From the NCBI GenBank assembly GCA_035526025.1, contig DATLDE010000005.1, forward strand, positions 32,192-96,191: a DNA stretch of 64,000 bases, read 5' to 3'. Under the pieces are notes generated by a model. The model saw only the letters and a program-made list of their open reading frames with translations. It was not told where the DNA came from and searched no databases. Position numbers and translations under genes: made by a program. Positions 3,898-56,115 of this stretch are shown in pieces (the first letter of the stretch is position 1; every line of letters starts with the position of its first letter). Origin of the DNA: Candidatus Limnocylindrales bacterium (GTDB taxonomy: Bacteria; Patescibacteriota; Microgenomatia; Levybacterales; UBA12049).

Positions 3898-4407
3898 ATG
3901 GAAATATTAAATAATTTCGGATTTGAACCTATTCTTTTTGCAGCGCAAATAGTCAATTTTTTGATTATATTTTTTGTGCTTAAGAAATTTATGTACAAAC
4001 CCGTACTTAAATTGCTTGATGAAAGAAAGAAAAAAATAGCAGAAGGACTAAAACAAGCTGAAGAATCTGCCAGAATACTTGAGGAAACAACAAAAAAAGA
4101 AGAAGAAATCCTAAAGAAAGCACAACATGAATCCAAAAAGATTCTCGATGAAGCACGTAGTCAAAGTGAAATTATGCTAGCAGAAAGTGCCGCGGAAACA
4201 AAAAAACAGGTTGCGAAAATGATAAAAGACGCAAGAGATCAAATAACTAGTGAGTCTGAGGAAGCTTCGAAAAAATTGGAATTACAAGTTAGTAAGCTTG
4301 CTATAGAATTCCTTGAGAAATCACTTAAGGGATTATTCACAGACCGCGAACAAGAAATTGTTATGAAAAACGCTGTGAATAAAATGAAAGGTGAAAAAAA
4401 CAAATGA
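3898..4407 (+). CDS. atpF: F0F1 ATP synthase subunit b
   Basis: 169 aa with a single N-terminal TM helix followed by a long charged coiled-coil (KKIAEGLKQAEESARILEE...). Positioned between atpE and atpH. Confidence 0.85.
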   Translation: MEILNNFGFEPILFAAQIVNFLIIFFVLKKFMYKPVLKLLDERKKKIAEGLKQAEESARILEETTKKEEEILKKAQHESKKILDEARSQSEIMLAESAAETKKQVAKMIKDARDQITSESEEASKKLELQVSKLAIEFLEKSLKGLFTDREQEIVMKNAVNKMKGEKNK

Positions 4408-12196: not shown

Positions 12197-13437
12197 TTTT
12201 TAACTTTCAGTATTTTAAATGTGCGATTAGTGTAATAAATTATAAAAGGTATGGCTATAATGGATCCCAAAAGAGCAGATATCCCTGCACCGAATAACTG
12301 ATATGACATTATAAATGGAACTATTGAAAGTATAAGTCCAAGAATATTTACCAATGTAATTACACTTGTATATTCTTGTTTTTTCATTGAGATAAATAGA
12401 GCAGTTGATGATAAAGAAACAGACTTTACAAAACCAAGGACGGCCAAAATCGGCAATACGCTTGCAATCCCTGACCACCTTTCACCAAGAATTGTTACGA
12501 AAAAACCGGGAAAAGATGCGAAAATAAAAGCAAATGGCAATGTAATTACAGAAATACACAGCACTGTTTTAAAATAAGCTGATTTCAAACGACTAGAATC
12601 GCCTGAAATCTTAATAAATATCGGAACTGTTACATGAACAAATACCCTACCTACCTCAATCAAGGGTGCCGCGGACAAAGAATATGCAAGTTGATAGATA
12701 CCCAAGAATTTTGCACCCAACAATCTTCCAACCATTATGTTATCTGCGTTGTGAAACAAATAATCAAATATACTGCTAGCTGTTATCCACTTTCCTCTGT
12801 TAAAAATCCTAACAATGTATTTTCTTTCAAAAACAAATGATGGCCGAGGAGTTACAACAATGAAAGATAGAATTAACTCCATAAATACCCCCGCAATGAG
12901 TCCAATTATAATTCCACTTGGATTTTTAGTTAAGTATGTAATTATAATAGAGATTACCGTATCGACAATTATCACTGAAAATCTATATAAAAAGTCTTTA
13001 GAAAACTTCAACTCTTTTTGTAATTTGACAATTGCAGGATTTATCATACCCCTCAAAAGCGGCACAATACTTATCATTTGTAAGAGCCCTAATGACTCCG
13101 GGGAATTAAAAAATGCTGATATAAATGGAGCGCTTGCTAAGATTAGCAAAAATATTACAATGCCTCTAAAAATTGAGACCACCCAAGCAGAATTAATATT
13201 GCGATCAATATCATCTTCTTGAATTAAGACTATATTTACGCCACTCTCTGTAATTACTTCTAATAGCCCTAAGGCCAATAATGCAATTCCATATGCTCCA
13301 AATTGCTCAGGAACCAAAATTCGCGCAAGAATAATTGCTTCAATAAATCCAAATCCTTTGGTTGCAACACGTAAAATTCCAAACCAGGATATTCCTTTTA
13401 TTGCGTCTTTTTTATAACCCATATTTAAATATACCAA
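12193..13437 (-). CDS. Wzx-type oligosaccharide/polysaccharide flippase (MOP superfamily)
   Basis: 414 aa with about 12 TM helices. The N-terminal KGISWFGILRVATKGFGFIEAIILARIL...GAYGIALLALGLLEVITESGVNIVLIQ is typical of polysaccharide biosynthesis protein/Wzx. Confidence 0.75.
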   Translation of the reverse strand: MVYLNMGYKKDAIKGISWFGILRVATKGFGFIEAIILARILVPEQFGAYGIALLALGLLEVITESGVNIVLIQEDDIDRNINSAWVVSIFRGIVIFLLILASAPFISAFFNSPESLGLLQMISIVPLLRGMINPAIVKLQKELKFSKDFLYRFSVIIVDTVISIIITYLTKNPSGIIIGLIAGVFMELILSFIVVTPRPSFVFERKYIVRIFNRGKWITASSIFDYLFHNADNIMVGRLLGAKFLGIYQLAYSLSAAPLIEVGRVFVHVTVPIFIKISGDSSRLKSAYFKTVLCISVITLPFAFIFASFPGFFVTILGERWSGIASVLPILAVLGFVKSVSLSSTALFISMKKQEYTSVITLVNILGLILSIVPFIMSYQLFGAGISALLGSIIAIPFIIYYTNRTFKILKVKK

Positions 13438-14350
13438 TTATCGTACCCAGTACCACTGCAAGATCAGATACTATCTGTAAAACAGGCAATATAATTATCG
13501 CTTTCAAGTCTTTTACATATTTATAGTTCTTCTCGATTGCCCAAATAAAATAAAAAAAAACTAGTAATGCTAAAGTAACTGAGAGCACATAGCTATCTCT
13601 TATTATAGCGAAATACAGCAATAAAATCCCCAAAATGTATCTAATAAAGATTATACCTACCTTAGGTCTAAAAGCCTTAGACTCTGCGTCACCTAATGAA
13701 AATCGATAAAACATATAAGATGCTTCTCTTAAATTTCTCCTGGGAATCCAATAAACAAAAGCTTGCTTACAAAATGCAATTGAGTAATTCATGTTTTTTA
13801 ATTTTCTTGCAAAAACATAGTCTTCATTATGAGAAAATTCTTCTGGAAATCCTCCTGACTTTTCCCACACACTTTTCCTAAATGCCATAGAGCGACTAGC
13901 AGGTAAAAAATTATCTGGATTTACTTTATCAGGCATGACAAGCACATAAGGCACCAGACATTTCTGGAAAATATTATTTGACGATCCTTTATAATACCCC
14001 GCCACAACATCCGTAGCGTTATTTTTAAAAGGTTTGACTATCTCCTCAATCCAATATTTATCCAATATGCACCCTGCATCTGAACAAACTATTATATCCC
14101 CTGTAGAATTCTTGATAGCTTTATTTCTACCTACAGACCTATTTCCAGGTTTGACTATTACTAAAAACTTTCCATTGTAGTCTTTGCTCTTTACTCTTTG
14201 ATCTTTGATCTTCTCAACAGTCTGGTCGCTACTTCCCCCATCAACAATTATTATCTCATCCGGCATTCTAGACTGAGCAAGTAATGATTCGAGTAGCTTA
14301 TTGATGGTTTTTTCTTCATTAAATACAGTTGTAATAAATGTTACATTCAT
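13412..14350 (-). CDS. family 2 glycosyltransferase with C-terminal membrane anchor
   Basis: The GT2 N-terminus MNVTFITTVFNEEKTINKLLESLLAQ...IIIVDGGSSDQT...VCSDAGC is followed by 2-3 C-terminal TM helices. The start was moved to ATG 14350, which overlaps the upstream gene's stop. The track start at 14410 is 20 codons upstream. Confidence 0.75.
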   Translation of the reverse strand: MNVTFITTVFNEEKTINKLLESLLAQSRMPDEIIIVDGGSSDQTVEKIKDQRVKSKDYNGKFLVIVKPGNRSVGRNKAIKNSTGDIIVCSDAGCILDKYWIEEIVKPFKNNATDVVAGYYKGSSNNIFQKCLVPYVLVMPDKVNPDNFLPASRSMAFRKSVWEKSGGFPEEFSHNEDYVFARKLKNMNYSIAFCKQAFVYWIPRRNLREASYMFYRFSLGDAESKAFRPKVGIIFIRYILGILLLYFAIIRDSYVLSVTLALLVFFYFIWAIEKNYKYVKDLKAIIILPVLQIVSDLAVVLGTIIGIFKYGL

Positions 14351-15393
14351 ATTTTCCAAAGTTCTAAATATGTTTTTGTTACTTTTTCCCATGTTTGATC
14401 TTTTGCCCATAAATATCCATTATTTACCATAGCTTCACTTTTCCAGGGATTATCAAGTACCGATTTTATGACATCATATATTTCACTTGCATCTTTACAG
14501 ATATATACAAAATTAGCAAACGGAGAATTTCGTAGATAATCTTCTTTCAATTTATTTTCATATACTGATATGACAATTTTTTTATGAATCAGCGCTTCTA
14601 GCATTAACAGATAAGATGAACAAAATACGATATCTGCGAATTCAATCGCTTCTGTTGAATCACTTACAAATTCTTTTACCTCGCCATATTTTTCAATTCG
14701 CGATGCTAAAGGCCCTTCTCCATAAGATTTGAAGTCAAAAGGTATTTTATTCTTCTTAAGTAAGTCTAATGATTTTAAATATGACATAATCCCCAAATCT
14801 TTTTCCAATCTTCCAATAAAAGTAATGGTTAAATTTGATTTCTGATTTTTGATTTCGCGTTCTGAGCCTGTCGAATGGAATGATTTTTGATTTTTTACTA
14901 AATTCACTCCTCCATATATTACAAAATTGGGTTTTGTATGATACCATTTTTTAATATATTCACCAACGCAAATATTTCCAGATGATAAATGCTCGCTGAT
15001 TTTTCTAATAATTATTGCTTTTTTATCAGGTGGAAACTTGGTCTCATGCCCATGAAACGTGGTAAAAACTTTTTTTGAAGGATTTATGATTTTAAATGGA
15101 AGATACCAGAAGAATACATCATGGCAATGAATTACGTCAGCATTTTTTAGTAATTTTTTAATCTCAAATAATTTTCTCCAAATTCTAAATTTTTTAAACC
15201 AATTATTTTCTCCAGAAACTATTCTCTTAACTGAAATGCCATCAATCTCTTTTGATTTTTCATTATTGTTTCCCTCTGCTATTACTGTGACTTTGTGACC
15301 GAGTTTTATTAAGTTTTTTCCTACCATTAATGCGTGTTTTTCAACTCCGCCAATTTGTGGACAGAATCTACGTGTAAAAAATATAATATTCAT
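14347..15393 (-). CDS. GT-B fold glycosyltransferase (GT4/GT1-like)
   Basis: 348 aa. N-terminal MNIIFFTRRFCPQIGGVEKHALMVGKNLIKLGHKVTVIA is typical of GT4 N-terminal domains. The C-terminal half is Rossmann-like. Confidence 0.7.
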   Translation of the reverse strand: MNIIFFTRRFCPQIGGVEKHALMVGKNLIKLGHKVTVIAEGNNNEKSKEIDGISVKRIVSGENNWFKKFRIWRKLFEIKKLLKNADVIHCHDVFFWYLPFKIINPSKKVFTTFHGHETKFPPDKKAIIIRKISEHLSSGNICVGEYIKKWYHTKPNFVIYGGVNLVKNQKSFHSTGSEREIKNQKSNLTITFIGRLEKDLGIMSYLKSLDLLKKNKIPFDFKSYGEGPLASRIEKYGEVKEFVSDSTEAIEFADIVFCSSYLLMLEALIHKKIVISVYENKLKEDYLRNSPFANFVYICKDASEIYDVIKSVLDNPWKSEAMVNNGYLWAKDQTWEKVTKTYLELWKI

Positions 15394-21040: not shown

Positions 21041-23883
21041 TTTATTCTTTTTACTTCAAAAGTACCTTTTGATATTGAGCTCACCAAAGCATTTTTCTTG
21101 ATATAATCTTCGAAACTTACTGGCCATTCTTCAATAATCAGATTTATCTTTTCATCAAGATCTGTGCCTACTTTTTTTCTTTCTTCCTGAACTGCGCGCA
21201 CAATTTCACGAGCTTGTCTTTCAGCTATTAAGCTCTCTGTAAGATTTACGTCAAGTTCCACTTTTGTTTCATTATCTTTGTTTCCATTCGCATATATAAT
21301 TTGCTTAACATTTAACTCATCCATAATGAGGTAATCTAGCTCTGTTCTGAATTTTGCTTCTTTTTTGCCTGGATATATAGTTATTTTTGCCAGTGGCTGC
21401 TTCACTTTAATTTGTTTTTCTTTTCGTTGGGCGAGACCCAGTTCAACAATTTTTCTAATATGCTTCATCTGCTCAACAAGTTCTTGATTCTTGGTTCCTG
21501 GTTCTTGGTTTGCGATGGGCCAATCAGACAAATGCACAGACTCTTCCCCGGTCAAATTTTGATAAATAGACTCTGAAATAAAAGGAGCAATTGGTGCCAA
21601 TAGCTTACAAACAGTTATCAGAACCTCATAAGTCGTTTCATAGAATGCCTGCTTATCATTCTCATCGGTTGCTGAAGGACCTACCCTATCACGGCTTCTT
21701 CTGATATACCAGGTAGAAAAATCAGTCACAAAGTCTTTTATATAATCAATTGCTTCAACTGTGTTATAACTGTCTAAACTTTTAGTAACATTTGAATTTA
21801 AATTACTTAATAAAACCATAATCCAATCATCTAATACATTCTTACTTCTTAATTCTTGTTTCTTAATTCTGTCTTGACTCCACGAGTCAAGATTTGCATA
21901 TGTTACAAAAAAATTATAAGTATTCCATAAAATCAGCATAGTTCCCCGAACTTGATTTCTGTACTGTTCTTCTGAAATTATTATGTCTTCCCCATTCATC
22001 ACAGGACTTCCCAACAGATAAAGTCGCAGAGCATCACCTCCATATTTATCAAGCATTTCTTTCGGATCTGGATAATTTTTGAAATTTTTACTCATTTTCC
22101 GTCCATCTGTCCCGAGAATAACTCCCTCAACCAGCACGTTCTTAAACGCAGGTGCTTCATATAAAGCTGCGCCTATTACATGCAAGACATAAAACCATGC
22201 ACGTATTTGACCAGTGTATTCGGCGATAAAATCAGGCGGAAAAAATTCCTCAAGTTTTTGTGATTTATCAAATGGAAAATGTCTTTCAGCAAAAGATGCA
22301 GAGCCAGCTTCTATCCAACTATCCAAAACCTCAGGCACTCTACTACTTAACTTCTTGCATTTTTTACATTTTACTTTTACTTCATCAATTTCAGGCTTGT
22401 GTAAATCCAGGATTTTCTGACCTGATGCTTCCTCCAGTTCCTGTATAGAACCCGGAACAAATAACTCTCCACAATCACATTCCCAAACAGGAACCGGACT
22501 CCCCCAGTACCGATTTCTTGATATATTCCAGTCAGGCGCATTCTCAAGACTTTTTAAGAATCGGCCTTCTTTAAAATGCTTTGGGAACCAATTAACTGAT
22601 TCATTTGTTTTCTTCATAAGAGGTTTTAAGTCCTGCACATTTACATACCATGCATTAATAGCGGCATAATAAAGCCTTGTATGACAGCGCCAACACAGGG
22701 GAACGCTATGCAAATAATCTTTAGTTTCGTATATCAGCTTACGGGATGTTAAATCGGCATTTACTGCTTTATTGGCTTTTAAGTAATACATTCCTCCAAA
22801 AATTGGCACATCTTCCTTGACTGTACCTTCTTCATCCAAATGAATTTCTATATGAATTTTATTCTCCTGCATTGCCTGAAGATCTTCTATTCCATACGCA
22901 GCCATTGTCACTATTCCTGTTCCCTCATCGGATGTAACAAAGCTTCCAGGAATAATTTCAAAAACTTTTTCTGAATCTTTTACTTTATTTTTATAGTAAT
23001 CGTAATGCGGGACAAATTTTTTCCCAACTAAAGTCGATCCTTTAAATGTATCAACTATTTTATAAGAGTTTTCCTCCCCCAATATTTTCAGTGTTGATTT
23101 TGCTAAAATATAATTTTCACCATTTTGTAAAACTTTTACATAGTCAATTTTCGGATTAAGGGCAAGAGCAGAAGTTGCTATTTTGGACCATGGAGTTGTA
23201 GACCACGCAAGTAAGTATGTACTCTTTTCACCCTCTAATTCATATTTATAGGTGGTAGCTGGATCACTCAATTCTTTATAGTTATCAGAATCCATGGCGA
23301 TCTCAAAATTGGAAACAGGAGTTGAGCAATGAGGACAATAAAGTGAAACTTTAAGACCTTTATAAACAAATCCTTTGTCATACATTTGTTTAAAAACCCA
23401 CATGACAGATTCCATATAATCTTTGTCCCACGTCTTGTAGGCATTTTTAAAATCTGCCCATCTCCCAATTCTATCTATGTACCATTCCCAATCTGCCGAG
23501 ACATCATCAACATATTCCTTACACTTATCGATAAATGTCTTGACCCCTACAACTTCTTCTATATCCCGTTTTCTTTTGATTTCAAGCTCATTCTCTACTT
23601 TATTTTCAATTGGAAGACCATGTCCATCCCAACCCCATACCCGCTCAACTCTATAACCTTTCATTGTCCAATACCTACCAAATAAATCTTTCGGAAGACT
23701 TGAGAGTAATGATCCATAATGAGGCATACCGGTTACAAAAGGAGGACCATCCAGGAAGTTCCATTTTTTTTCTTTGGGGCGACTGCTGACAGACTTTTCA
23801 AATATCTTATTTTTTTTCCAGTATTCTGTAATTTCTTTTTCCAGATCCGGGAAATTAACAGCAGGAGTAACAGGCTTGAACAT
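21037..23883 (-). CDS. ileS: isoleucyl-tRNA synthetase (type 2 / eukaryote-archaeal-like)
   Basis: 948 aa. Has the HIGH-class motif PPFVTGMPHYG, KMSKN (the KMSKS motif), the IleRS-specific WNISRNRYWGSPVPVWEC box and Zn-binding CWRCHT. Confidence 0.85.
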   Translation of the reverse strand: MFKPVTPAVNFPDLEKEITEYWKKNKIFEKSVSSRPKEKKWNFLDGPPFVTGMPHYGSLLSSLPKDLFGRYWTMKGYRVERVWGWDGHGLPIENKVENELEIKRKRDIEEVVGVKTFIDKCKEYVDDVSADWEWYIDRIGRWADFKNAYKTWDKDYMESVMWVFKQMYDKGFVYKGLKVSLYCPHCSTPVSNFEIAMDSDNYKELSDPATTYKYELEGEKSTYLLAWSTTPWSKIATSALALNPKIDYVKVLQNGENYILAKSTLKILGEENSYKIVDTFKGSTLVGKKFVPHYDYYKNKVKDSEKVFEIIPGSFVTSDEGTGIVTMAAYGIEDLQAMQENKIHIEIHLDEEGTVKEDVPIFGGMYYLKANKAVNADLTSRKLIYETKDYLHSVPLCWRCHTRLYYAAINAWYVNVQDLKPLMKKTNESVNWFPKHFKEGRFLKSLENAPDWNISRNRYWGSPVPVWECDCGELFVPGSIQELEEASGQKILDLHKPEIDEVKVKCKKCKKLSSRVPEVLDSWIEAGSASFAERHFPFDKSQKLEEFFPPDFIAEYTGQIRAWFYVLHVIGAALYEAPAFKNVLVEGVILGTDGRKMSKNFKNYPDPKEMLDKYGGDALRLYLLGSPVMNGEDIIISEEQYRNQVRGTMLILWNTYNFFVTYANLDSWSQDRIKKQELRSKNVLDDWIMVLLSNLNSNVTKSLDSYNTVEAIDYIKDFVTDFSTWYIRRSRDRVGPSATDENDKQAFYETTYEVLITVCKLLAPIAPFISESIYQNLTGEESVHLSDWPIANQEPGTKNQELVEQMKHIRKIVELGLAQRKEKQIKVKQPLAKITIYPGKKEAKFRTELDYLIMDELNVKQIIYANGNKDNETKVELDVNLTESLIAERQAREIVRAVQEERKKVGTDLDEKINLIIEEWPVSFEDYIKKNALVSSISKGTFEVKRIK
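21481..21508. repeat. imperfect heptanucleotide tandem repeat (TTCTTGG-like, about 4 units) inside ileS
   Basis: ttcttga ttcttgg ttcctgg ttcttgg, encoding NQEPGTKNQE on the minus strand. The same heptamer is repeated at 53957-53984. Confidence 0.6.
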
Positions 23884-35612: not shown

Positions 35613-35631
35613 GATTCTTACTTCTTTATTC

Positions 35632-36873
35632 CTACTTCTTAATTCTTTTATTTATTGCTTCCAACGCTACCTGCTTCTCATCCCACGGCTCTTCTCCTTG
35701 TCCATAATTTATTGATTTTTCATGTCCTTTTCCGGTGAGTATAATCACATCTCCCTTTGTGGCAAGAGAAACTGCAAATTCGATTGCGTCTCTTCTATTT
35801 GGAATTGATATTATATATTTATTTTTTGAATCCAGATATACTTCAGAATTTTTGACTGCAAGATAATTAACAATTCCGAATTCAGGACTTTTGATGCCTG
35901 AAATAATTTCGCTGTTAATTTCTTCTACTGTCTCGTTTCTTGGGTCTTCTGCGGTTAAAATCATAATGTCGCTAAAATCAGATGAAATCTTGCCCATCTC
36001 TGACCTCTTGTACTTATCTCTTTTTCCTGCTGCACCAAATACATGAATAAGTTTATTTTTTGTGATTTTTTTAGCTTCTGGAAGGATAACTGAAAAAGAA
36101 TTTGGAGTATGGGCAAAATCATTAATCACGAGGAATTCCTTATCATAAACTATTTCCTGCCTACCTGATGGTGCTACAAAACTCGCAACTCCTTTTCGGA
36201 TTTCATCATCAGGTATATTGAGCTGCTTCAATACAGCTATGGCAGCAAGAGAATTATAAGCATTAAATTTTCCAAGAAGCTTTGTTTTAAATGTAAAATT
36301 ATGTGGATTTATTTTTGCATCATTTTTAAAACCATAGGTTATTATTTTTTTATTTCTTAATATTTTTTTCATCAACACATATGACTTATCATCTTTATTG
36401 AGAATTGCAATCTTTGCGCTTTTTAACAATCTTGATTTGGCTAGAGCGTATTTTTCATAAGTTTTGTGATAATCAAGATGCTCATTTGTTATATTTGTCA
36501 GAACTCCTACCTCAATTGGTATTCCATAAGCTCTGTATTGATCAAGTGCGTGTGATGTGATTTCCAGAACTACATATTCGACACCCAATTTTTTTGATTT
36601 TTTTAGATATGATTGAAGCGCAAATCTACCAGGAGTTGTAACGTGGAAACCTATATCAGATTCTTTATTGCTTATTATTGCCCCAACTGAGGAAATAAGT
36701 GAAGCCTTATACCCTGCTTTATTTAAAACATGATAAATAAGACTTGCTGTAGTTGTCTTACCATCAGTTCCTGTGACACCAATCACTTTTAGTTTTCTTG
36801 CCGGGAACCAATACATGATGTTGGCAAGCAATGCTTGAGATAAATGATATTGATTTTTTGCAGTTTGCCACAT
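35632..36873 (-). CDS. murE: UDP-MurNAc-L-Ala-D-Glu--2,6-diaminopimelate (or L-Lys) ligase MurE with reduced N-terminal domain
   Basis: Mur ligase P-loop GVTGTDGKTTT, GRQEIV...VINDFAHTPNSF (the MurE-type DxAHTPDAL box) and a C-terminal domain. Only about 30 aa precede the P-loop. Confidence 0.7.
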   Translation of the reverse strand: MWQTAKNQYHLSQALLANIMYWFPARKLKVIGVTGTDGKTTTASLIYHVLNKAGYKASLISSVGAIISNKESDIGFHVTTPGRFALQSYLKKSKKLGVEYVVLEITSHALDQYRAYGIPIEVGVLTNITNEHLDYHKTYEKYALAKSRLLKSAKIAILNKDDKSYVLMKKILRNKKIITYGFKNDAKINPHNFTFKTKLLGKFNAYNSLAAIAVLKQLNIPDDEIRKGVASFVAPSGRQEIVYDKEFLVINDFAHTPNSFSVILPEAKKITKNKLIHVFGAAGKRDKYKRSEMGKISSDFSDIMILTAEDPRNETVEEINSEIISGIKSPEFGIVNYLAVKNSEVYLDSKNKYIISIPNRRDAIEFAVSLATKGDVIILTGKGHEKSINYGQGEEPWDEKQVALEAINKRIKK

Positions 36874-41893: not shown

Positions 41894-41930
41894 TTCTGCC
41901 CTTTCTATGTTATTAGTTATTTGTTATAAG

Positions 41931-42389
41931 TTATTCGATTTCTCCGGACAGTCTTTCTGCAATTGACTCTATCTTTTCATTTAAATCATTCTGATGCTCA
42001 ACCCACCCTTTCTTATTCCAAACCTCAACAAATCGTTCAATTCCTGCAAAGACAATTTCATTATCAATTTTCGCAAATTCTCTTAAATATTCAGGTATCA
42101 CGAACCTTCCTTTATTGTCCAACTCAATGTCTGTTGCATTTCCCAAAAGAAATCTTTGCAATTCCCGTGTATTTTTATTTGTAAAAGGTCTACCTGTTGT
42201 CCCTTCAAGTAAAGTCTTCCAGTTATCAAGCGAAACAACGATCAAGCAATTCTCAAATCCTTTTGTAATTATCAACCTATCACCCAACACTTCTCTAAAT
42301 TTCTTAGGAAGTGATGCCTGATGTTTTTCACTTACTTTACTTTCATACTGCCCGATTAACATATTTACTGCCTCTACTTTTATTTCCAA
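41931..42389 (-). CDS. mraZ: transcriptional regulator MraZ
   Basis: 152 aa with a duplicated MraZ/SpoVT-AbrB fold (MLIGQYESKV...KGRFVIPEYLRE). First gene of the dcw cluster. Confidence 0.88.
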   Translation of the reverse strand: MEIKVEAVNMLIGQYESKVSEKHQASLPKKFREVLGDRLIITKGFENCLIVVSLDNWKTLLEGTTGRPFTNKNTRELQRFLLGNATDIELDNKGRFVIPEYLREFAKIDNEIVFAGIERFVEVWNKKGWVEHQNDLNEKIESIAERLSGEIE

Positions 42390-50237: not shown

Positions 50238-51341
50238 TCAAATCAATTTATTCACAACTGACAAGAAATTTTTTTTAAAACTTTCAAAATTAAATCTTTC
50301 TGAGTTAATTATGCATTCATTAGGTCTGAACTTTATTTTTTCAAATCTCACGATCGATTCCATCAAAGACTCCTTATTCTGCTCATCAAAAAACAATCCC
50401 GTACTGCCGTCAATTACTATTTCGCGGGCTCCTCCTTTTTTAAAAGCAATTACTGGCTTGCCATGCATTCCTGCCTCTACCATAACAAGCCCAAAATCTT
50501 CTACTCCAGGAAATATCAACGCTTTACAATTTTTGTAATAATCAATAAGGTCAGCATCATTTATTGCTCCGATAAATTCTACACTAGAACCCGCTATTTT
50601 TTCAAGATCATTTTTCCAGCTCCCTTCTCCTACAATTTTTAAATTAAATTTAAGTTCATTAGCAGCTTCAATGACGAGATCAATTCGCTTATACTTTGTG
50701 AATTTTGAAAGCCTTGAAACCACAAGAAAATAATTTTCCTGATTCCTGATTCTTACCTGCCTGCCTGATTGGAGGGATTCTTGATTCTTTTTTAGAATTG
50801 CCGGTGGATAAACTAACTGCGATTCTCTTCCATAATATTTCTTAATTCTCCTCTGCACCTCTTTGGATATTCCGATATATGCATCAGGCCTTGAAGAGGC
50901 TATGATATCCCATTTTTGAAGCCTTGAAATAATCGGTTTTGACAAAATTTTTAGAAAATCAGTCTGAAAGTAATCATCATACCCACTCCATAAATATCTT
51001 GTAGGCGTGAGACAATAGCAAATGTGGATTGTCCCTGGTTTGGTAATTATTCCTTTTGCTGATTCTGAAGTAACTGAAATGACTAGATCATATTTATCAA
51101 AAACAAGGCTTTCAAACACCAATGGCATCAAAGGCGAAACAAATTCATGGTTTGAGGATGCGAATGGTATTTTCTGGAGAAAGGAAGTTCTAACATCAAA
51201 TACTTTAGCCCATTTTGCTGTATTTTTTTCATAGACCGAAGTATAAAGAGGTGCATCTGGAAATAACTTATGAAAAGCAAGAAGCACTCGCTCAGCACCA
51301 CCCCATTTATTAACTCTATCGTAAACTAATGCTACTTTCAT
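50238..51341 (-). CDS. family 4 glycosyltransferase (GT-B)
   Basis: MKVALVYDRVNKWGGAERV... is a GT4 N-terminal domain, and the C-terminal domain has GVEDFGLVMVEAGMHGKPVIA (the EX7E region). The ORF stays open to 51398, but the GT domain starts at 51341. Confidence 0.75.
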   Translation of the reverse strand: MKVALVYDRVNKWGGAERVLLAFHKLFPDAPLYTSVYEKNTAKWAKVFDVRTSFLQKIPFASSNHEFVSPLMPLVFESLVFDKYDLVISVTSESAKGIITKPGTIHICYCLTPTRYLWSGYDDYFQTDFLKILSKPIISRLQKWDIIASSRPDAYIGISKEVQRRIKKYYGRESQLVYPPAILKKNQESLQSGRQVRIRNQENYFLVVSRLSKFTKYKRIDLVIEAANELKFNLKIVGEGSWKNDLEKIAGSSVEFIGAINDADLIDYYKNCKALIFPGVEDFGLVMVEAGMHGKPVIAFKKGGAREIVIDGSTGLFFDEQNKESLMESIVRFEKIKFRPNECIINSERFNFESFKKNFLSVVNKLI

Positions 51342-52428
51342 ATACAGCCAGTGTCTCTTTTGCCATTTTTCTCCAGGAAAATTCTTTTGAGCGCTCAAGT
51401 CCTTTCTTTATATTTTTATCAAGTATATTTTGCTCAAGACTAAAAACATCGTTTATTTTGTTCTTTATATCCTCAATAGAATATGGATCAAAATATATTG
51501 CAGCATCTAGACAAACTTCTCGCAGCGAAGGAATGTCAGACGCAATAACCTGACATGCTGATGCCATAGCCTCAAGCACCGGTAACCCAAAACCTTCCAT
51601 GAGAGACGGAGATATAAGTGCAATTGCGTTTTGATAATAACCAGCGAGTTCTTTGTCAGTGACATTATTCCGGACTACAACTCCTGAGTAATTTTCTTTT
51701 AAGATTTTCTCATTTAATTTTTTATAAAAAAAATCATCCTTTCCAACCAGCACCAATTGTATGTTTTCATGGTCTTCCTTTCTGAATAAAGAAAAGGCTT
51801 TTATTAATCTGTCAAGATTTTTGTGTGGATATGCATTCCCAACATATAAAAAATATTTTGTTTTATCAACAATTTGTACTTTATCTTTTTTTTGTATTTT
51901 TTCATCAAATCCTTCATAAGTGACAATAATTTTTTCTTGCTTAACTCCCAGGGTTTCTATCAAGTCGTCTTTCACGGCATTCAGCGGTACTATGATTTTT
52001 TGGGCTTTATTAACTGCATTCTTAACCACATAATCATATCCAAGTTTCTTGAGTTGATATAAATACAAAGGAAGCTTTGAGGCTTTACCTGTTGGGAAAT
52101 GATTTATGATCAAATCGTGAATCGTGATGACAAATGGATTTTTATATCCAACAGGAATAGAGAAATATGGAAAATGAACCAAATCCAAATTCTCTTTATT
52201 CAAAATTTGAGGAAGTTTTAACTGCTCATCAAGCGTATGCCAACGAATGTCCACCCGGACAACTTTGAACTTTGAACTTTGAACTTTGAACTTGTCAGCA
52301 TCTGCAGACCTCATAAACAAAACATAATCATTTGTTTTGTCAATTTCGGCTAAATTGTAAACCAAATTCCTGATATACCTCCCAACTCCTGTCTCGCTCC
52401 AAAGCCGCGCGTCAATACCAATTTTCAT
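51316..52428 (-). CDS. family 4 glycosyltransferase (GT-B) containing an in-frame heptanucleotide repeat tract
   Basis: MKIGIDARLWSETGVGRYIRNL... is a GT4 N-terminus, and the C-terminal has PSLMEGFGLPVLEAMA. Four perfect AACTTTG units encode KFKVQSSKFKV near the N-terminus. Confidence 0.8.
   Translation of the reverse strand: MKIGIDARLWSETGVGRYIRNLVYNLAEIDKTNDYVLFMRSADADKFKVQSSKFKVVRVDIRWHTLDEQLKLPQILNKENLDLVHFPYFSIPVGYKNPFVITIHDLIINHFPTGKASKLPLYLYQLKKLGYDYVVKNAVNKAQKIIVPLNAVKDDLIETLGVKQEKIIVTYEGFDEKIQKKDKVQIVDKTKYFLYVGNAYPHKNLDRLIKAFSLFRKEDHENIQLVLVGKDDFFYKKLNEKILKENYSGVVVRNNVTDKELAGYYQNAIALISPSLMEGFGLPVLEAMASACQVIASDIPSLREVCLDAAIYFDPYSIEDIKNKINDVFSLEQNILDKNIKKGLERSKEFSWRKMAKETLAVYESSISLR
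52261..52294. repeat. heptanucleotide microsatellite (AACTTTG)x4 plus one imperfect unit, inside GT4 coding sequence
   Basis: aactttg at 52261-67, 52268-74, 52275-81 and 52282-88, then aacttg. Confidence 0.85.
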
Positions 52429-52449: not shown

Positions 52450-53364
52450 CTAAGTAGTGTTTCTTTTGTGAAGAAAACTTATTCCACATTCAACTATCCA
52501 ATTTATAATTTTAGGATATTTTCCTGAATAGTTTTTTTTATAAAAAATCCTCATCGCTTCAAATCGATGTCCTTGCATGATCCTTCTTCGCTCCTTGTCT
52601 GCTGTTGATATGTGATGCGATTGTTTTTTAATACCACTTGATACTCCGCCATAATGAAGAATGCTTACGTCTGGGATATAATAAATTTTAAACCCGAGTT
52701 TTTTAATATCATAACAAAATTGCAAATCCTCGCCATAGAAAAAGTATTCTTCATCCCACCATCCAATTTTTTCACCAACATCCCGACGGACCAACAAAAA
52801 CGCACCAGAAATTGCATCAACCTCGTGAATTGTATTAATGTTTTTAAATCCTTGTATATACCCACTGAACAATTTAGACTTTGAAAACACTTTTTCAAGT
52901 TTTGAAAAATGCGAGAGCGCATTCCATGGAGTAGGAAATCCACGATGCGATGAGTCATCGATTCCGCCTGTAGGTAACACCACCTTACAAGTTGCGGCCC
53001 CAGCATCTTTATGTTCATCCATAAACTCTATCATTCGTGAAAGTGTATTTGGGTATACAATCGTATCCGGATTGAGAAACAATATATACCGCCCATGTGC
53101 ATTTTTAAGAGCATTGTTGTTACCTTTTGCAAAACCGATGTTTCCTCCATTATCTTCAACTAAGAACGTTTTAATTTTTGTCTTATTAGCATAATCTTTA
53201 AATGATTTCAGAGAATCATCAGGTGATGCGTTATCAGCTACAATTACTTCAAAATTTCCTGACTTTACATCTTCTGGATAATTTTTTTCAATAGATGCAA
53301 TAGCGTCAAGCGTCAACTGCTTTGTATTATAATTTAAGATAATTATTGAAAGATCCACGACCAT
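52450..53364 (-). CDS. family 2 glycosyltransferase
   Basis: LSIIILNYNTKQLTLDAIASI...VIVADNASPDDS...FLNPDT. Confidence 0.8.
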   Translation of the reverse strand: MVVDLSIIILNYNTKQLTLDAIASIEKNYPEDVKSGNFEVIVADNASPDDSLKSFKDYANKTKIKTFLVEDNGGNIGFAKGNNNALKNAHGRYILFLNPDTIVYPNTLSRMIEFMDEHKDAGAATCKVVLPTGGIDDSSHRGFPTPWNALSHFSKLEKVFSKSKLFSGYIQGFKNINTIHEVDAISGAFLLVRRDVGEKIGWWDEEYFFYGEDLQFCYDIKKLGFKIYYIPDVSILHYGGVSSGIKKQSHHISTADKERRRIMQGHRFEAMRIFYKKNYSGKYPKIINWIVECGISFLHKRNTT

Positions 53365-53369
53365 AATTA

Positions 53370-54611
53370 TTAATTCTTAATTCTTAATTCGCTATAAACC
53401 CGTTCCAAGTCTTTTGCTATTCTTTTCCATGTGTAATTTTCTTCAATTAATTTCCTCCCATTTTTTGCAATATTCTCATAAAGATTATTATCTTCTAAGA
53501 CTTCAACAGTTTTTTTTGCTAATTCTTTAGCATCTTCAGCAACCATAATATTTTCACCGTCTTTTGCGCCTACTGCGTTAGCGCTAAGTGAAGTAGCTAC
53601 AACAGGTGTTCCGCAACACATACTTTCAAGAATCTTATAGCTAGTTCCGCCACCCACCCTGATAGGAGCCAACAATACATCTGCCTCCTGAAACAACTCT
53701 TCCGTTGGTCTGGTTGAAGACTCTTCATCAAATATGACATCTGGTTCGTTTGTTAAGCTCCTTATATTATCCGGAATATTTCTCCCTACAACCCAGAGCT
53801 TAATCTCGTCATCCTGAAGCGTAGCTGAAGGATCTAGAATCTTCGCTTTACTCAGAATGACAGTTTTAATTTTAGGAAATATTTCATCAATTATAAATTT
53901 CGCTGCATCCCTATTTTGAATCCACCTGAAGTCACCAATGAACAACACTCTTTTGATTCTTGGTTCTTGGTTCTTGGTTCTTTGTAGAAAAGTAAACTTT
54001 TCTAAATCGACCCCATTGGAGACAATAGTTGGATCAACTCCTGTATTTTTCATTACTTTTTTGTCATCCTCTGAAACAGCAATTAATTTTGTTGCTCTCG
54101 CCCAACATGATTCCTCCTCTTTTCTTATTTTGAGAATGTCTATATTAAATAATGGTTTTAAAAAAAATGGAGACTGGTCTGCATACCTTTGATAAACCTG
54201 GTACTCGATGTTGTGCTCTGCCAAAACAACAGGAATTGAAGAATTAGGAAGATTTTGCATAACATAATAAGTCTCAACGTGAATCAAATCATATTTTTTA
54301 TTTTTTAATTCTATTGAGATTTCTTGATTCATTTTCTGACTTTTGTGCCCTGTTACAAGAAATGAGTTTGAGGAAAAAACTGACTTAAATACATTTTTAA
54401 TTGTCCATTGCTTTCCCCTATTAACTGTAATTACTTTTTTACATATTTTTTTAACTCCTAGAATGTCATCCTCTGACTGATTTTCACGCTTTTCACAAAT
54501 GAGTGTTATCTCATGCTTTCCTGCCAATTCTTTTATAAGATTAAACAGCCGTACATGACCTCCAGAATGAAGCGGATAAGGAAGAAAGGACGAGACTAAT
54601 AAAATCTTCAT
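53370..54611 (-). CDS. family 4 glycosyltransferase (GT-B)
   Basis: MKILLVSSFLPYPLHSGGHVRLFNLIKELAGKHEITL is a GT4 N-terminus, and the C-terminal has ...LLAPIRVGGGTSYKILESMCCGTPVVAT. Contains a TTCTTGG x3 repeat. Confidence 0.8.
   Translation of the reverse strand: MKILLVSSFLPYPLHSGGHVRLFNLIKELAGKHEITLICEKRENQSEDDILGVKKICKKVITVNRGKQWTIKNVFKSVFSSNSFLVTGHKSQKMNQEISIELKNKKYDLIHVETYYVMQNLPNSSIPVVLAEHNIEYQVYQRYADQSPFFLKPLFNIDILKIRKEEESCWARATKLIAVSEDDKKVMKNTGVDPTIVSNGVDLEKFTFLQRTKNQEPRIKRVLFIGDFRWIQNRDAAKFIIDEIFPKIKTVILSKAKILDPSATLQDDEIKLWVVGRNIPDNIRSLTNEPDVIFDEESSTRPTEELFQEADVLLAPIRVGGGTSYKILESMCCGTPVVATSLSANAVGAKDGENIMVAEDAKELAKKTVEVLEDNNLYENIAKNGRKLIEENYTWKRIAKDLERVYSELRIKN
53957..53984. repeat. 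heptanucleotide tandem repeat (TTCTTGG)x3 plus an imperfect unit, inside GT4 coding sequence
   Basis: ttcttgg at 53957-63, 53964-70 and 53971-77, then ttctttg. Encodes TKNQEPRI on the minus strand. Confidence 0.8.
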
Positions 54612-54645: not shown

Positions 54646-56115
54646 CTATAAATTAAGTGCGGTTTTGTTATCATTTATACAATTTTTAAGATCAATAATC
54701 ACATAATTTGCAGTTTTTTTGACTACTTTGCATTTTTTCATCCACATATTTGTAGTTTCATCATAATTCACCGAGACGAGGTGGGTCGCTCCTTCTGAAA
54801 TAAACTGAGGTATTTTATCTCCACCGTATGTAAAACCATAGCGATTTGTCTGGTAGAGAAATGCAGAATCAAAATCAAGTGGTGCTATAACTTTTGCGTC
54901 TTTTGGCAATAATTTATCTACTGCTTGACCAGCCTCAACCATCGCAGGATTATTAATATTAAAATATCCCCTAACTTCAAACCAGCCAAAAGCTAACATA
55001 AATAGCACCAATGAAGCTGCAACGCCAGTATTTATAACTCTTTGATAAAACTTTGCTTTAGTAAAGATAAGATAATCTATACCTTTTGCTATGAAAATAC
55101 TACCAATTGTAACTAAGGGCATTTGGTAATAATCATGCGTTACATTACCCTTGGCTATTATCGTGAAGAAAACGAAAATAGATATCAGCCATAAGTAATA
55201 AAAAAATCCTTCTTTCTCACTATTCCCTTTTATTATTCCAAGCCAGAATAAAACAAATCCCCCGGTCGCAAATATCAGACGATTCATACGGTCATATATT
55301 AAATATCTGAAGAAAGCGCCTTTAAAACGTATATTTCCCTGATTAAAAAGCCATGTTGTCCCAAACATTCCCTCTGGATACTGAGCAATATGATTTCGCC
55401 ATAACAGAAATGGAATTAAGGCAATAGCAGCTGCGACATAAATAGAATATTGTTTGTAAAAAATAAATTTCCATTTTCTTAGGATCAAATAACTTATTGG
55501 CAAGATTAGAACCAAACCGTAAGGTTTTGTAAGTATGGTAATCGCAAAAACTACTCCAGCTAGAATTGCAATTAGAATTTTTTCCGTCTTCACCCAATGT
55601 GTTACAAGTAGCAAAGTCAGAACGCTGGCAAAAATATGTAATGGGTCAGGCATAATCACTCGACCATAATATATGTTGTAGGGAAGGAATCCGAAAACAA
55701 AAGCAGATAGTAGTCCTATACGTTTTGACGAATACTCTTTTGCTAAAAAATACAGTACTACAGTTGTTAGGGATGATACTAGGATACTAACAAGCCTTCC
55801 CCACTGTTCAATAGTGAAATTACCAAATGCAGTGTATGCAAAATAGACAAGCGAATTGTAGATTGGGAATTCAGCAAAAAAGTATCTTTTAGGATTTGGT
55901 AGCTGTCTTTCGTTTAGTGAGTTTAGGGCATCAAATTTTGGATAAAAAGGAGTATAACCTTCTTTTATAAAGTTTCGAGTTACTGCTGCTGTATCTGCTT
56001 GACGCCAACTGTGCCAGTCTGCAACTGGATTGTTAAATTTGTAAAGTCGCACAACAAAACTTCCGATGAATATTGCCAATAGCGTAAGTACTATTAAAAA
56101 TTTGTTATATTTCAT
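54646..56115 (-). CDS. GT-C fold glycosyltransferase, GT39/GT83 (PMT/ArnT-like) family
   Basis: 489 aa with about 11 TM helices. The first loop, FNNPVADWHSWRQADTAAVTRNF, resembles the conserved loop 1 of ArnT/PMT-type polyprenyl-phosphate-sugar-dependent transferases. Confidence 0.6.
   Translation of the reverse strand: MKYNKFLIVLTLLAIFIGSFVVRLYKFNNPVADWHSWRQADTAAVTRNFIKEGYTPFYPKFDALNSLNERQLPNPKRYFFAEFPIYNSLVYFAYTAFGNFTIEQWGRLVSILVSSLTTVVLYFLAKEYSSKRIGLLSAFVFGFLPYNIYYGRVIMPDPLHIFASVLTLLLVTHWVKTEKILIAILAGVVFAITILTKPYGLVLILPISYLILRKWKFIFYKQYSIYVAAAIALIPFLLWRNHIAQYPEGMFGTTWLFNQGNIRFKGAFFRYLIYDRMNRLIFATGGFVLFWLGIIKGNSEKEGFFYYLWLISIFVFFTIIAKGNVTHDYYQMPLVTIGSIFIAKGIDYLIFTKAKFYQRVINTGVAASLVLFMLAFGWFEVRGYFNINNPAMVEAGQAVDKLLPKDAKVIAPLDFDSAFLYQTNRYGFTYGGDKIPQFISEGATHLVSVNYDETTNMWMKKCKVVKKTANYVIIDLKNCINDNKTALNL

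What the first reader, a model, noticed from the sequence alone, without database searches (positions are those of the whole stretch)
52261..52294. Heptanucleotide microsatellite (AACTTTG)x4 inside a GT4 glycosyltransferase ORF: potential slipped-strand phase-variation switch
Four perfect units and one degenerate unit of a 7-nt repeat lie within codons about 40-50 of the GT4 gene at 51316-52428. They encode KFKVQSSKFKV in a region that is normally a short loop of the N-terminal Rossmann domain. Because 7 is not a multiple of 3, gaining or losing one unit shifts the frame and truncates the enzyme. This is the mechanism used for on/off switching of surface-glycan genes in Haemophilus, Neisseria and Campylobacter. 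The gene sits in a surface-glycosylation locus, the kind of place such switches are found. Four copies is at the low end for efficient slippage, so this is a hypothesis only.
Basis: partly seen in the sequence, partly recalled or inferred. Interest (0 to 1): 0.5.

Follow-up and report, generated by a model that had tools for sequence, protein, structure and literature searches.

The report
Seven-base repeat switch in glycosyltransferase
A perfect 7-base repeat inside a sugar-transferase gene of an uncultured Levybacteria-like (CPR) bacterium is one of many such repeats concentrated in that group's glycosyltransferase genes; in related wild populations, loss of whole repeat units switches these genes off, but switching has not been shown for this gene.

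Summary
Window 52261-52293 is a perfect (AACTTTG)x4.7 array of 33 nt, at codons 46-56 of a GT4 gene, and far beyond chance.

It is not isolated. Perfect tandem repeats in the window and in 80 orthologous Levybacteria/Microgenomates loci are almost all period 7. They recur at fixed loop and linker sites of five glycosyltransferase families, with 72 arrays in 408 kb. The adjacent non-GT cluster genes (205 kb) have none.

Units differ between orthologs, yet each array is internally perfect. Synonymous sites inside the tract are conserved, so the DNA repeat itself is maintained.

In two natural strain-level populations, the only indel is loss of one unit (7 nt) or two units (14 nt) inside such an array. 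One case lies at the homologous site. Each splits a GT gene. Here, a change of one or two units would truncate the enzyme at 61-74 aa.

Caveats:
- The tract is short.
- It has the same length in three lineages.
- No population data exist for this organism.
- The same array occurs in essential genes of many phyla, and a similar hotspot exists in Verrucomicrobia LarC. An array alone therefore does not prove an adaptive switch.

Verdict: a real slippage-prone frameshift hotspot. A phase-variation role is plausible and partly supported.

The parts
52261..52293 (-). Perfect heptanucleotide array (AAGTTCA)x4.7 on the coding strand. It covers codons 46-56 (KFKVQSSKFKV), which form a surface loop plus the start of beta3.
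51316..52428 (-). GT4 glycosyltransferase gene (370 aa) that carries the array; currently in frame (ON).
53957..53982 (-). Second perfect array, (AAGAACC)x3.7, in the interdomain linker of the upstream GT4 (codons 210-219, TKNQEPR). A change of one unit truncates the product at 228-237 aa.
53370..53390 (-). Third perfect array, (GAATTAA)x3. It supplies the last six codons and the TAA stop of the upstream GT4, and ends 5 nt before the ATG of the GT2 gene.
53370..54611 (-). Upstream GT4 gene (413 aa) holding two arrays. Its orthologs carry arrays at the same linker site, and one ortholog (L008) is frameshifted inside an array.
14181..14212 (-). Heptamer array (AAGATCA-type; perfect part 14195-14212) in a GT2 gene (13412-14410) of the second glycosylation cluster, just after the DGGSSD motif.
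14836..14856 (-). Degenerate heptamer array in the linker of GT4 gene 14347-15393, before the TFIGRL strand.
50238..51398 (-). Downstream GT4 gene. It has no perfect array here, but its orthologs carry linker arrays, and one natural allele (L088) lacks one unit and is split.
52450..53364 (-). GT2 gene of the cluster. Its orthologs carry arrays after the DNASxDGS motif, or in the region just upstream of the start codon.
54646..56115 (-). PMT_2-type membrane glycosyltransferase. Its orthologs carry arrays after the FFDKW motif.
21480..21510 (-). Decayed heptamer array (83% matches) in the essential IleRS gene. This is the contrast case: the array is present but no longer perfect.
21838..21870 (-). 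Second decayed heptamer array (76% matches) in IleRS. The stop-containing unit AAGAATT has been mutated to stop-free variants.

Best explanation
The tract is a heptanucleotide simple-sequence repeat embedded in frame in a surface loop of a GT4 glycosyltransferase. It is one of a lineage-wide set of heptamer arrays that occupy fixed loop and linker positions of the glycosyltransferases (three GT4 paralogues, a GT2 and a PMT-like enzyme) of a conserved surface-glycan cluster in Levybacteria-like CPR bacteria.

During replication the array can misalign by whole units. A change of one or two units shifts the frame and truncates the enzyme after 61-74 residues (OFF). A change of three units keeps the frame and changes the loop by 7 residues. 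The same slippage homogenises the units, so arrays stay perfect while their unit sequence drifts between lineages. The result is a low-frequency, in principle reversible, ON/OFF mutational switch for individual glycosyltransferases. It would vary the surface glycan without touching the priming, nucleotide-sugar or polymerase genes.

Shown: the repeat, its non-randomness, the family, its restriction to GT genes, DNA-level maintenance, and unit-loss OFF alleles in related natural populations.

Inferred: that this particular tract slips at a useful rate in this organism, that switching is reversible, and that it is selected for.
For: - Repeat real and non-random: 33 nt against a shuffle maximum of 19.
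- Period-7 specificity: 59 perfect runs of at least 18 nt in 634 kb of orthologous loci, against 0-2 for periods 5, 6 and 8-13.
- Recurrent sites in five GT families.
- Density: 72 arrays in 408 kb of GT genes, 0 in 205 kb of adjacent cluster genes, 0 in 34 kb of housekeeping genes. TRF, which includes degenerate arrays, gives 136, 4 and 2 respectively.
- Same site, different perfect units in orthologs.
- Synonymous sites conserved inside the tract: 10/10 codons shared with L057 against 0.48 expected per codon, P about 7e-4.
- Natural OFF alleles: L081 versus L082/L083 differ by -14 nt at the homologous site A. L088 versus nine other contigs differs by -7 nt in the GT4_dn linker array, and this is the only indel in 11.1 kb. 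The pairs are 99.3-99.9% identical.
- Frameshifts in MAGs: 2 of the 3 frame changes found in 264 GT genes lie at arrays.
- Predicted truncation at 61-74 aa.
- Precedents: neuO (AAGACTC)n; the evolved heptamer locus in pflu0185, with a 150-fold rate increase at 2 copies and more than 10^4-fold at 6.
Against: - No second genome or read set of this species was available, so variation at this tract is untested.
- The tract has 4.7 units in the window, L086 and L057, i.e. a stable length over long divergence.
- OFF alleles are rare overall: 66 ON against 2 OFF among arrays with long open frames on both sides. Two other population samples showed no array variation.
- The same array occurs in frame in CarB, UvrA, ArgRS, enolase, MurC and other essential genes.
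- A comparable hotspot with unit turnover exists in LarC of Verrucomicrobia. Arrays can therefore persist without any benefit from switching.
- GT enrichment could partly reflect more permissive loops.
Confidence: 0.55

Rival explanations
1. Self-perpetuating neutral SSR. A general, unexplained bacterial bias toward 7-nt slippage seeds heptamer arrays anywhere. They survive only in loops and linkers that tolerate 7-residue changes, and are kept perfect by slippage-driven homogenisation. Frameshifted alleles are just mildly deleterious or neutral knock-outs of dispensable GT genes, not a selected switch.
For: - Identical arrays sit in frame in essential genes of many phyla.
- The LarC linker hotspot in Verrucomicrobia shows unit turnover in a non-surface gene.
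- Heptamer excess is seen in contigs of all GC classes and is reported in the literature as a general, unexplained feature.
- Arrays sit in predicted loops and linkers.
- The length peak at 32-34 nt fits a pure in-frame constraint.
- The OFF fraction is low.
Against: - The 17-fold or greater enrichment in GT genes over neighbouring Wzy, DUF4012, nucleotidyltransferase and priming-transferase genes is hard to attribute to loop tolerance alone.
- Perfect arrays are confined to GT genes or the region just upstream of GT starts, while the IleRS arrays are decayed.
- OFF alleles reached assembly-dominant frequency in two natural samples.
- If tolerance alone mattered, 3n-period repeats should dominate, yet they are absent.
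Confidence: 0.35
2. Ordinary coding sequence. The peptide KFKVQSSKFKV is conserved for structural reasons and the DNA periodicity is a by-product of codon choice.
For: The peptide recurs in several orthologs: P0002, P0009, P0010, P0013 and L057.
Against: - 33 nt of perfect 7-nt periodicity cannot arise from a peptide constraint.
- Synonymous positions are identical across 53-76% identical orthologs, P about 7e-4.
- Equally close orthologs have different units or degenerate sequence at the site.
- The same DNA array occurs in unrelated proteins.
Confidence: 0.03
3. Imported micro-cassette. A preformed block of about 33 nt of (AAGTTCA)n is inserted by some mobile or templated mechanism into many genomes.
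For: - The same unit and similar length occur in contigs of GC 0.29-0.68 and in many genes.
- Units are reused within a genome at unrelated sites: 7 identical pairs against 1.7 expected, P=0.0014.
- A composite insert made of two adjacent heptamer arrays occurs three times within the array-bearing ORF of L179.
Against: - In the GC-rich LarC case, orthologs carry related units at the same site, so the AT-rich unit arose in situ.
- Window-versus-L086 comparisons show small net length changes, not clean 33-nt insertions.
- One empty site shows an 11-nt seed plus exactly 3 units.
- The apparent fixed register is partly an artefact of my 26-nt query.
Confidence: 0.05

Closest known systems
neuO poly-psi VNTR of E. 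coli K1 (CUS-3 prophage polysialic acid O-acetyltransferase)
   Same: A heptanucleotide unit of the same A-rich 'AAGnnnn' type (AAGACTC) lies inside the coding region of a surface-polysaccharide-modifying enzyme. Three units are read in all three frames as one heptad. The product is full length only in one copy-number class modulo 3. Slippage of single units gives ON/OFF states.
   Different: The neuO tract sits two nucleotides after the start codon as a disordered N-terminal extension, has 2-93 copies, and tunes activity. Here the tract is internal (codons 46-56, loop plus strand start), has 4.7 copies, and lies in a GT4 enzyme of a CPR bacterium. Switching and any activity tuning have not been measured.
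SSR contingency loci in LOS/LPS glycosyltransferase genes of Haemophilus, Neisseria and Campylobacter
   Same: Non-3n repeats inside individual glycosyltransferase ORFs of a surface-glycan locus. Several genes per locus carry repeats, while core pathway genes are spared. Frameshifted alleles occur among strains (for the literature; for the data here).
   Different: Those loci use mainly mono- or tetranucleotide units with many copies and are found in host-adapted pathogens. Here the unit is 7 nt, with 3-7 copies, at mid-gene linkers as well as near the N-terminus, in environmental CPR bacteria. The OFF fraction observed is low.
Heptanucleotide SSRs of H. influenzae (hmw1A/hmw2A promoters, hmw1A ORF, TonB-dependent receptor)
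   Same: Heptamer units. Both intragenic examples with frameshifted alleles and promoter-proximal examples exist. Levybacteria loci also have arrays just upstream of GT start codons.
   Different: Copy numbers in H. influenzae are mostly 6-38 (range 1-38), and the genes encode adhesins or receptors rather than glycosyltransferases.
Experimentally evolved heptanucleotide contingency locus in Pseudomonas fluorescens pflu0185
   Same: An 11-nt seed (one unit plus 4 nt) expands by whole heptamers. The frame is restored by contraction or by adding further units. Frameshift rates are strongly elevated already at 2-6 copies. The 11-nt seed-like stretch in L006, opposite the 32-nt array in L014, parallels this.
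   Different: That locus arose in a laboratory selection on a c-di-GMP regulator, with a GC-rich unit (GGTGCCC). It is not a family of arrays in natural glycan genes.
Over-represented heptameric SSRs of Xanthomonas and Nostoc (GGGNATC), and cyanobacterial STRR heptamers
   Same: A period-7-specific excess of tandem repeats with a preferred size of about four units, in bacteria that are not host-adapted pathogens. STRR rests on my own knowledge and on mentions listed.
   Different: Those repeats are G-rich, proposed to form G-quadruplexes, mostly intergenic and under-represented in ORFs. Here the arrays are A-rich, unstructured, almost all inside ORFs on the coding strand, and concentrated in glycosyltransferases.

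Membership tests
SSR-mediated phase-variable (contingency) locus | Perfect tandem repeat, with a unit length not a multiple of three, inside the ORF or promoter | tested here: met
   (AAGTTCA)x4.7, 100% identity, codons 46-56
SSR-mediated phase-variable (contingency) locus | Unit gain or loss abolishes the full-length product | tested here: met
   In-silico changes of one or two units give products of 61-74 aa. Changes of three units stay in frame.
SSR-mediated phase-variable (contingency) locus | Copy number varies among cells or strains at this very locus | not testable with these tools
   Only one sequence of this species exists in the collections and no reads are available. Orthologs L086 and L057 have the same length.
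SSR-mediated phase-variable (contingency) locus | Copy number varies, with ON and OFF alleles, at homologous or sister loci in natural populations | tested here: met
   L081 against L082/L083 shows -14 nt at site A of the ortholog. L088 against nine contigs shows -7 nt in the GT4_dn linker array, the only indel in 11.1 kb. L008 and L064 are frameshifted at arrays.
SSR-mediated phase-variable (contingency) locus | High-frequency, reversible switching | not testable with these tools
   Needs read-level population data or a fluctuation assay. Literature on a heptamer with 2-6 copies shows rate increases of 150-fold to more than 10^4-fold.
SSR-mediated phase-variable (contingency) locus | Association with surface or antigen-determining genes rather than core functions | tested here: inconclusive
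   Within Levybacteria loci the arrays are restricted to GT genes: 72 in 408 kb against 0 in 239 kb. Across metagenomes, however, the same array lies in many essential genes.
neuO-type poly-psi heptad VNTR | Heptanucleotide unit read in three frames as a heptad peptide within the enzyme | tested here: met
   AAG TTC AAA GTT CAA AGT TCA encodes KFKVQSS. neuO comparison.
neuO-type poly-psi heptad VNTR | Tract placed directly after the start codon as a dispensable, disordered N-terminal extension | tested here: not met
   The tract is at codons 46-56, modelled with pLDDT about 88-93 as a loop plus the start of beta3.
neuO-type poly-psi heptad VNTR | Wide copy-number range (2-93) among isolates, with activity scaling with heptad number | not tested
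   There are no isolates. Three lineages all have 4.6-4.7 units.
G-rich heptameric SSRs (Xanthomonas/Nostoc GGGNATC) and STRR | Period-7 tandem repeat with about four units | tested here: met
   literature
G-rich heptameric SSRs (Xanthomonas/Nostoc GGGNATC) and STRR | G-rich unit able to form a G-quadruplex; mainly intergenic | tested here: not met
   The unit AAGTTCA has one G. The fold shows no structure in the tract. 57 of 59 arrays are inside ORFs.
Glycosyltransferase family 4 (GT-B fold) | Glyco_transf_4 N-domain plus Glycos_transf_1 C-domain | tested here: met
   PF13439 (1.1e-13) and PF00534 (5.6e-32). The model shows two Rossmann-like domains.

The most novel reading that the evidence does not exclude
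Levybacteria and related Microgenomates (CPR) possess a heptamer-SSR 'phasome'. Five or more glycosyltransferases of one conserved surface-glycan cluster each carry slippage-prone heptanucleotide arrays at fixed loop or linker sites, some of them upstream of start codons. This would give combinatorial ON/OFF variation of the cell-surface glycan. To my knowledge, and within the searchable literature, these would be the first contingency loci described in the Candidate Phyla Radiation. Beyond that, the same data expose a cross-phylum class of long-lived, in-frame heptamer hotspots with concerted unit turnover. Their strict 7-nt periodicity points to an unrecognised property of bacterial replication or repair.
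Probability: 0.4. Interest if true: 0.75.

Novelty: new member of a known kind. Interest (0 to 1): 0.62.

Why it matters
CPR bacteria are tiny, mostly uncultured cells, and many are thought to live attached to hosts. Their surface glycans are likely central to host attachment and to phage and predator evasion, yet nothing is known about how they vary them.

A conserved set of slippage switches in their glycosyltransferases would give these streamlined genomes, which have few regulators, a cheap bet-hedging mechanism. It would also explain strain heterogeneity and split GT genes in MAGs that are usually dismissed as assembly errors or pseudogenes.

The finding also makes an old, unexplained observation tractable. 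The excess of heptameric repeats in bacteria can now be studied at defined coding-region hotspots whose unit turnover and ON/OFF alleles can be followed in public metagenomes.

Tried and rejected
1. An exact-protein lookup for the window's GT4 found no contig on record. The nearest relative is 77% identical, so same-species alleles could not be compared.

2. Cluster-member length differences were mostly alternative start calls, contig ends or chimeric clustering: P0066/P0132, P0043/P0141, P0140 and P0139/L084. Only P0145 was a true array frameshift.

3. The P0146 population (L097-L104) showed no array indels. L100 differs by a recombinant 5' region.

4. The mobile-cassette idea was prompted by identical 33-nt arrays in GC-rich and unrelated genes. 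It was weakened by the in-situ unit series in LarC, by the window-versus-L086 comparisons and by the seed-plus-3-units case. The apparent fixed register was partly an ascertainment artefact of my 26-nt query.

5. OFF candidates in the metagenome loci (9) were not pursued. Several are in GC-rich contigs, where long open frames arise by chance.

6. An RNA or regulatory role of the tract was rejected. There was no Rfam hit at E<=1, no promoter or terminator site at the tract, and no stable fold in the tract (overall z -0.72).

7. The Elhai 2008 paper on very small mobile repeats in cyanobacteria could not be retrieved. Statements about it and about STRR rest on my own knowledge.
Full report
**Observation.**
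Window 52261-52293 is AACTTTG x4 followed by AACTT: 33 nt, 4.7 copies, 100% identity. Base 52294 is the first mismatch. On the coding (-) strand it is (AAGTTCA)4 AAGTT, at codons 46-56 of ORF 51316-52428 (370 aa), encoding KFKVQSSKFKV. Pfam identifies a GT4 enzyme, with PF13439 in the N-domain and PF00534/PF13692 in the C-domain. In 200 dinucleotide-preserving shuffles of the window, the longest perfect period-7 run was 19 nt. The expected number of runs of at least 18 nt was 0.055, and four are observed.

**Surroundings.**
The window (GC 35.5%) holds two glycosylation clusters, at about 10.2-17.8 kb and 46.4-62 kb. The rest is housekeeping: ATP synthase, the dcw/mur/fts genes, IleRS and ProRS.

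All four perfect period-7 runs lie in GT genes:
- the finding itself;
- (AAGAACC)x3.7 in the interdomain linker of the upstream GT4 (53957-53982);
- (GAATTAA)x3, which forms the last codons and the stop of that GT4, 5 nt before the GT2 start (53370-53390);
- an AAGATCA-type array in a GT2 gene (14195-14212).

No other period from 6 to 12 gives a comparable run. IleRS carries two decayed heptamer arrays.

An identical protein (P0001) exists in an NCBI MAG. All other relatives are Levybacteria or Microgenomates (CPR), and the closest is 77% identical.

**A family of arrays.**
Eighty orthologous loci from species-representative genomes were fetched. At the homologous site, between the YVLF strand and DIRWH, many orthologs have perfect heptamer arrays with different units:
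- (AAAGCTC)x5.4 in L021;
- (GCAAATG)x3.9 in L006;
- (AACAATT)x3 in L003;
- (AAATTGG)x2.9 in L010 and L029;
- the window's own unit, x4.6, in the 53%-identical L057.

Across 634 kb there are 59 perfect period-7 runs of at least 18 nt. Periods 6 and 9-13 give 0, period 5 gives 1 and period 8 gives 2. Fifty-seven of the 59 lie in ORFs, on the coding strand, at recurrent positions:
- site A and the interdomain linker of the query GT4;
- the linker and a second loop of the upstream GT4;
- the loop after the DxSxD motif of the GT2;
- the linker of the downstream GT4;
- a loop after FFDKW in the PMT-like enzyme.

Two arrays are intergenic, just upstream of gene start codons (one of them the GT2 start). 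Units are A-rich and stop-free in all three frames. Identical units recur at unrelated sites of one genome more often than expected: 7 pairs against 1.7, P=0.0014.

**Restriction to glycosyltransferases.**
ORFs were labelled by homology to the annotated window proteins. GT genes then hold 72 perfect arrays in 408 kb. The other cluster genes hold none in 205 kb; these are the nucleotidyltransferase, DUF4012, priming transferase, Wzy, flippase and acetyltransferase. Housekeeping genes hold none in 34 kb. With TRF, which also detects degenerate arrays, the counts are 136 (28 perfect), 4 (0 perfect) and 2 (0 perfect). Many of the unassigned arrays lie directly upstream of GT start codons.

**DNA-level maintenance.**
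However, codons are shared too. There are 10 identical codons among 10 shared residues against L057, and 9 of 10 against L086. Elsewhere in the gene only 48-50% of shared residues use the same codon (P about 7e-4). Equally close orthologs have other units or degenerate sequence. The repeat itself is therefore being maintained or homogenised, not the peptide.

**Consequences and structure.**
A change of one or two units gives products of 61-74 aa. A change of three units gives 363 or 377 aa in frame. The AlphaFold model (pLDDT 89.3) places residues 45-53 in a loop and 54-58 in beta3. The linker site (177-191) is of low confidence. No RNA family, promoter or terminator signal, or fold is associated with the tract.

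**Direct evidence for unit slippage with ON/OFF outcome in relatives.**
1. In the P0049 cluster, an ortholog about 59% identical to the window protein, contigs L082 and L083 carry the intact gene. L081, from a sister sample, has it split into calls of 52 and 343 aa. The only indel between L081 and L082 is a 14-nt deletion inside the site-A array, leaving AATTCAT AATTCAG instead of two such pairs. Otherwise they differ by 7 mismatches in 2.9 kb.
2. In the P0074 population there are ten contigs of 11.1 kb from different samples, with 152 SNP columns. The only true indel is a 7-nt deletion in L088 inside the (AGCATCA/AGTATCA) array of the downstream GT4 linker. It splits that gene.
3. Among 264 GT orthologs in species-representative MAGs, three frame changes exist, and two are at heptamer arrays (L008, L064). 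L028 has an in-frame stop at an array edge.

**Evidence that limits the adaptive-switch reading.**
- Arrays are short, at 3-7 units.
- Among arrays with long open frames on both sides, 66 are ON and 2 are OFF.
- Two other populations show no array variation.
The 80 loci returned span GC 0.29-0.68, and the array lies in frame in many unrelated proteins. These include CarB, UvrA, ArgRS, enolase, MurC, MurG, IleRS, MnmA and LarC, with lengths peaking at 32-34 nt.
- Those contigs carry 75 further heptamer arrays with other units, while other periods stay rare.
- For the GC-rich LarC case the host is a Limisphaerales (Verrucomicrobiota) bacterium. Orthologs 80-91% identical show, at the same linker site, a series of heptamer-type peptides with mutationally connected units: VQSSKFKVQS, VQGSRFKVQG, VQNAKSKMQN and SNQCSVFSVQS.

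Long-lived hotspots with unit turnover therefore also exist in a non-surface gene. The AT-rich unit arose in situ and was not imported. The 32-34 nt peak is what an in-frame constraint predicts: a seed of about 12 nt plus three units. One empty-site pair shows exactly this, with a 32-nt array in L014 opposite an 11-nt seed-like stretch in L006, a difference of 21 nt. Window-versus-L086 comparisons show only small net length changes at array sites.

**Comparison with known systems.**
- The closest is neuO of E. coli K1. It has (AAGACTC)n in the 5' coding region, three units per RLKTQDS heptad, is ON only in one class modulo 3, and slips by single units.
- Heptanucleotide SSRs also mediate or are suspected to mediate phase variation in H. 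influenzae.
- A heptamer contingency locus evolved de novo in P. fluorescens. It started from an 11-nt seed, with 150-fold (2 copies) to more than 10^4-fold (6 copies) elevated frameshift rates.
- A general, unexplained excess of heptameric SSRs in bacteria, with a preference for about four units, has been reported, but for G-rich, mostly intergenic repeats.
- Searches combining CPR or Patescibacteria with phase variation or SSRs found nothing relevant.

**Verdict.**
The tract is a genuine, DNA-level-maintained heptanucleotide SSR and a frameshift hotspot. It belongs to a previously undescribed (within the searched literature) lineage-wide set of heptamer arrays concentrated in Levybacteria glycosyltransferases. 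In related populations these arrays demonstrably generate OFF alleles by whole-unit loss.

That it works as a phase-variation switch is the best-supported explanation (about 0.55). It is unproven for this gene, and a neutral, self-perpetuating SSR remains a serious rival (about 0.35). In kind it is a new member of a known mechanism. The strict 7-nt periodicity, the within-genome reuse of units and the cross-phylum hotspots remain unexplained.

Noticed in passing
window 53370-53390: (GAATTAA)x3 on the coding strand encodes the last six residues (ELRIKN) and the TAA stop of the upstream GT4. It ends 5 nt before the ATG of the GT2 gene. Every unit contains TAA, so unit changes would alter the C-terminus and the stop-to-start spacing rather than truncate the enzyme.
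   Followed up: partly
window 53957-53982: Perfect (AAGAACC)x3.7 in the interdomain linker of the upstream GT4. A change of one unit truncates the product at 228-237 aa. The same linker site carries arrays in L008, L010, L014, L025 and L028.
   Followed up: yes
window 21480-21510 and 21838-21870: Two decayed heptamer arrays (83% and 76% matches) inside the essential IleRS gene. In the second, the stop-containing unit AAGAATT has been mutated to AAGAAAC and AAGAAGT. They look like old arrays fixed by point mutations.
   Followed up: partly
window 35614-35645 and 41909-41935: A period-14 (2x7) array spans the stop codon of Mur ligase gene 35632-36873. A degenerate heptamer array lies in the mraZ-mraW intergenic region.
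   Followed up: no
window 50238-51398: The listed TTG start at 51398 overlaps the GT4 gene by 83 nt. Alignment with L086 suggests that the true start is the ATG 19 codons downstream (MKVALVYDR, about 51341).
   Followed up: partly
whole window / P0001: The identical protein is labelled 'Candidatus Limnocylindrales bacterium' (Chloroflexota) at NCBI. However, every ortholog and the gene order match Levybacteria/Microgenomates, so the label is probably wrong or the contig mis-binned. Many GTDB representatives are likewise titled 'uncultured Gammaproteobacteria'.
   Followed up: no
L012 2712-2757; L074 8669-8688; L046, L036, L048, L004 at about 3930-3999: Heptamer arrays also occur in intergenic DNA directly upstream of GT2 or GT4 start codons. 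The longest is (AACAATA)x6.6. These are possible promoter or 5'-UTR spacing switches like the H. influenzae hmw repeats.
   Followed up: partly
L179 (metagenome contig, GC 0.46), ORF of 700 aa: A composite insert of about 30 aa (MTNDELRMTNDE...HSTFNIQHSTF) is made of two adjacent heptamer arrays. It occurs three times at different places in the 700-aa ORF that also carries the (AAGTTCA) array (not annotated; resembles a membrane glycosyltransferase with TPR repeats), reminiscent of dispersed in-frame mini-repeats.
   Followed up: no
L155 and orthologs P0148-P0223 (Limisphaerales LarC): A single linker site after RPNVVRAALGE carries heptamer-type peptides with at least five different units among orthologs 80-91% identical. 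It is a long-lived heptamer hotspot in a GC-rich, non-surface gene.
   Followed up: partly
L003-L086 and window: The same heptamer unit tends to be used at several unrelated sites within one genome: AAAATTC at three sites in L085, AAATTGG twice in L010, AAAAATC in two genes of L086. The excess is 7 identical pairs against 1.7 expected (P=0.0014). No mechanism was identified.
   Followed up: partly
L028 about 1500-1540: The upstream GT4 has an in-frame TAG exactly at the 5' edge of its (AGTTCGA) array, while the frames on both sides agree. It is either a nonsense allele or a sequencing error at the array boundary.
   Followed up: no
L086 14772-15571: The closest relative has a DDE transposase pair (DUF4096 and DDE_Tnp_1) inserted between the priming transferase and DUF4012 genes of the otherwise syntenic cluster.
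   Followed up: no
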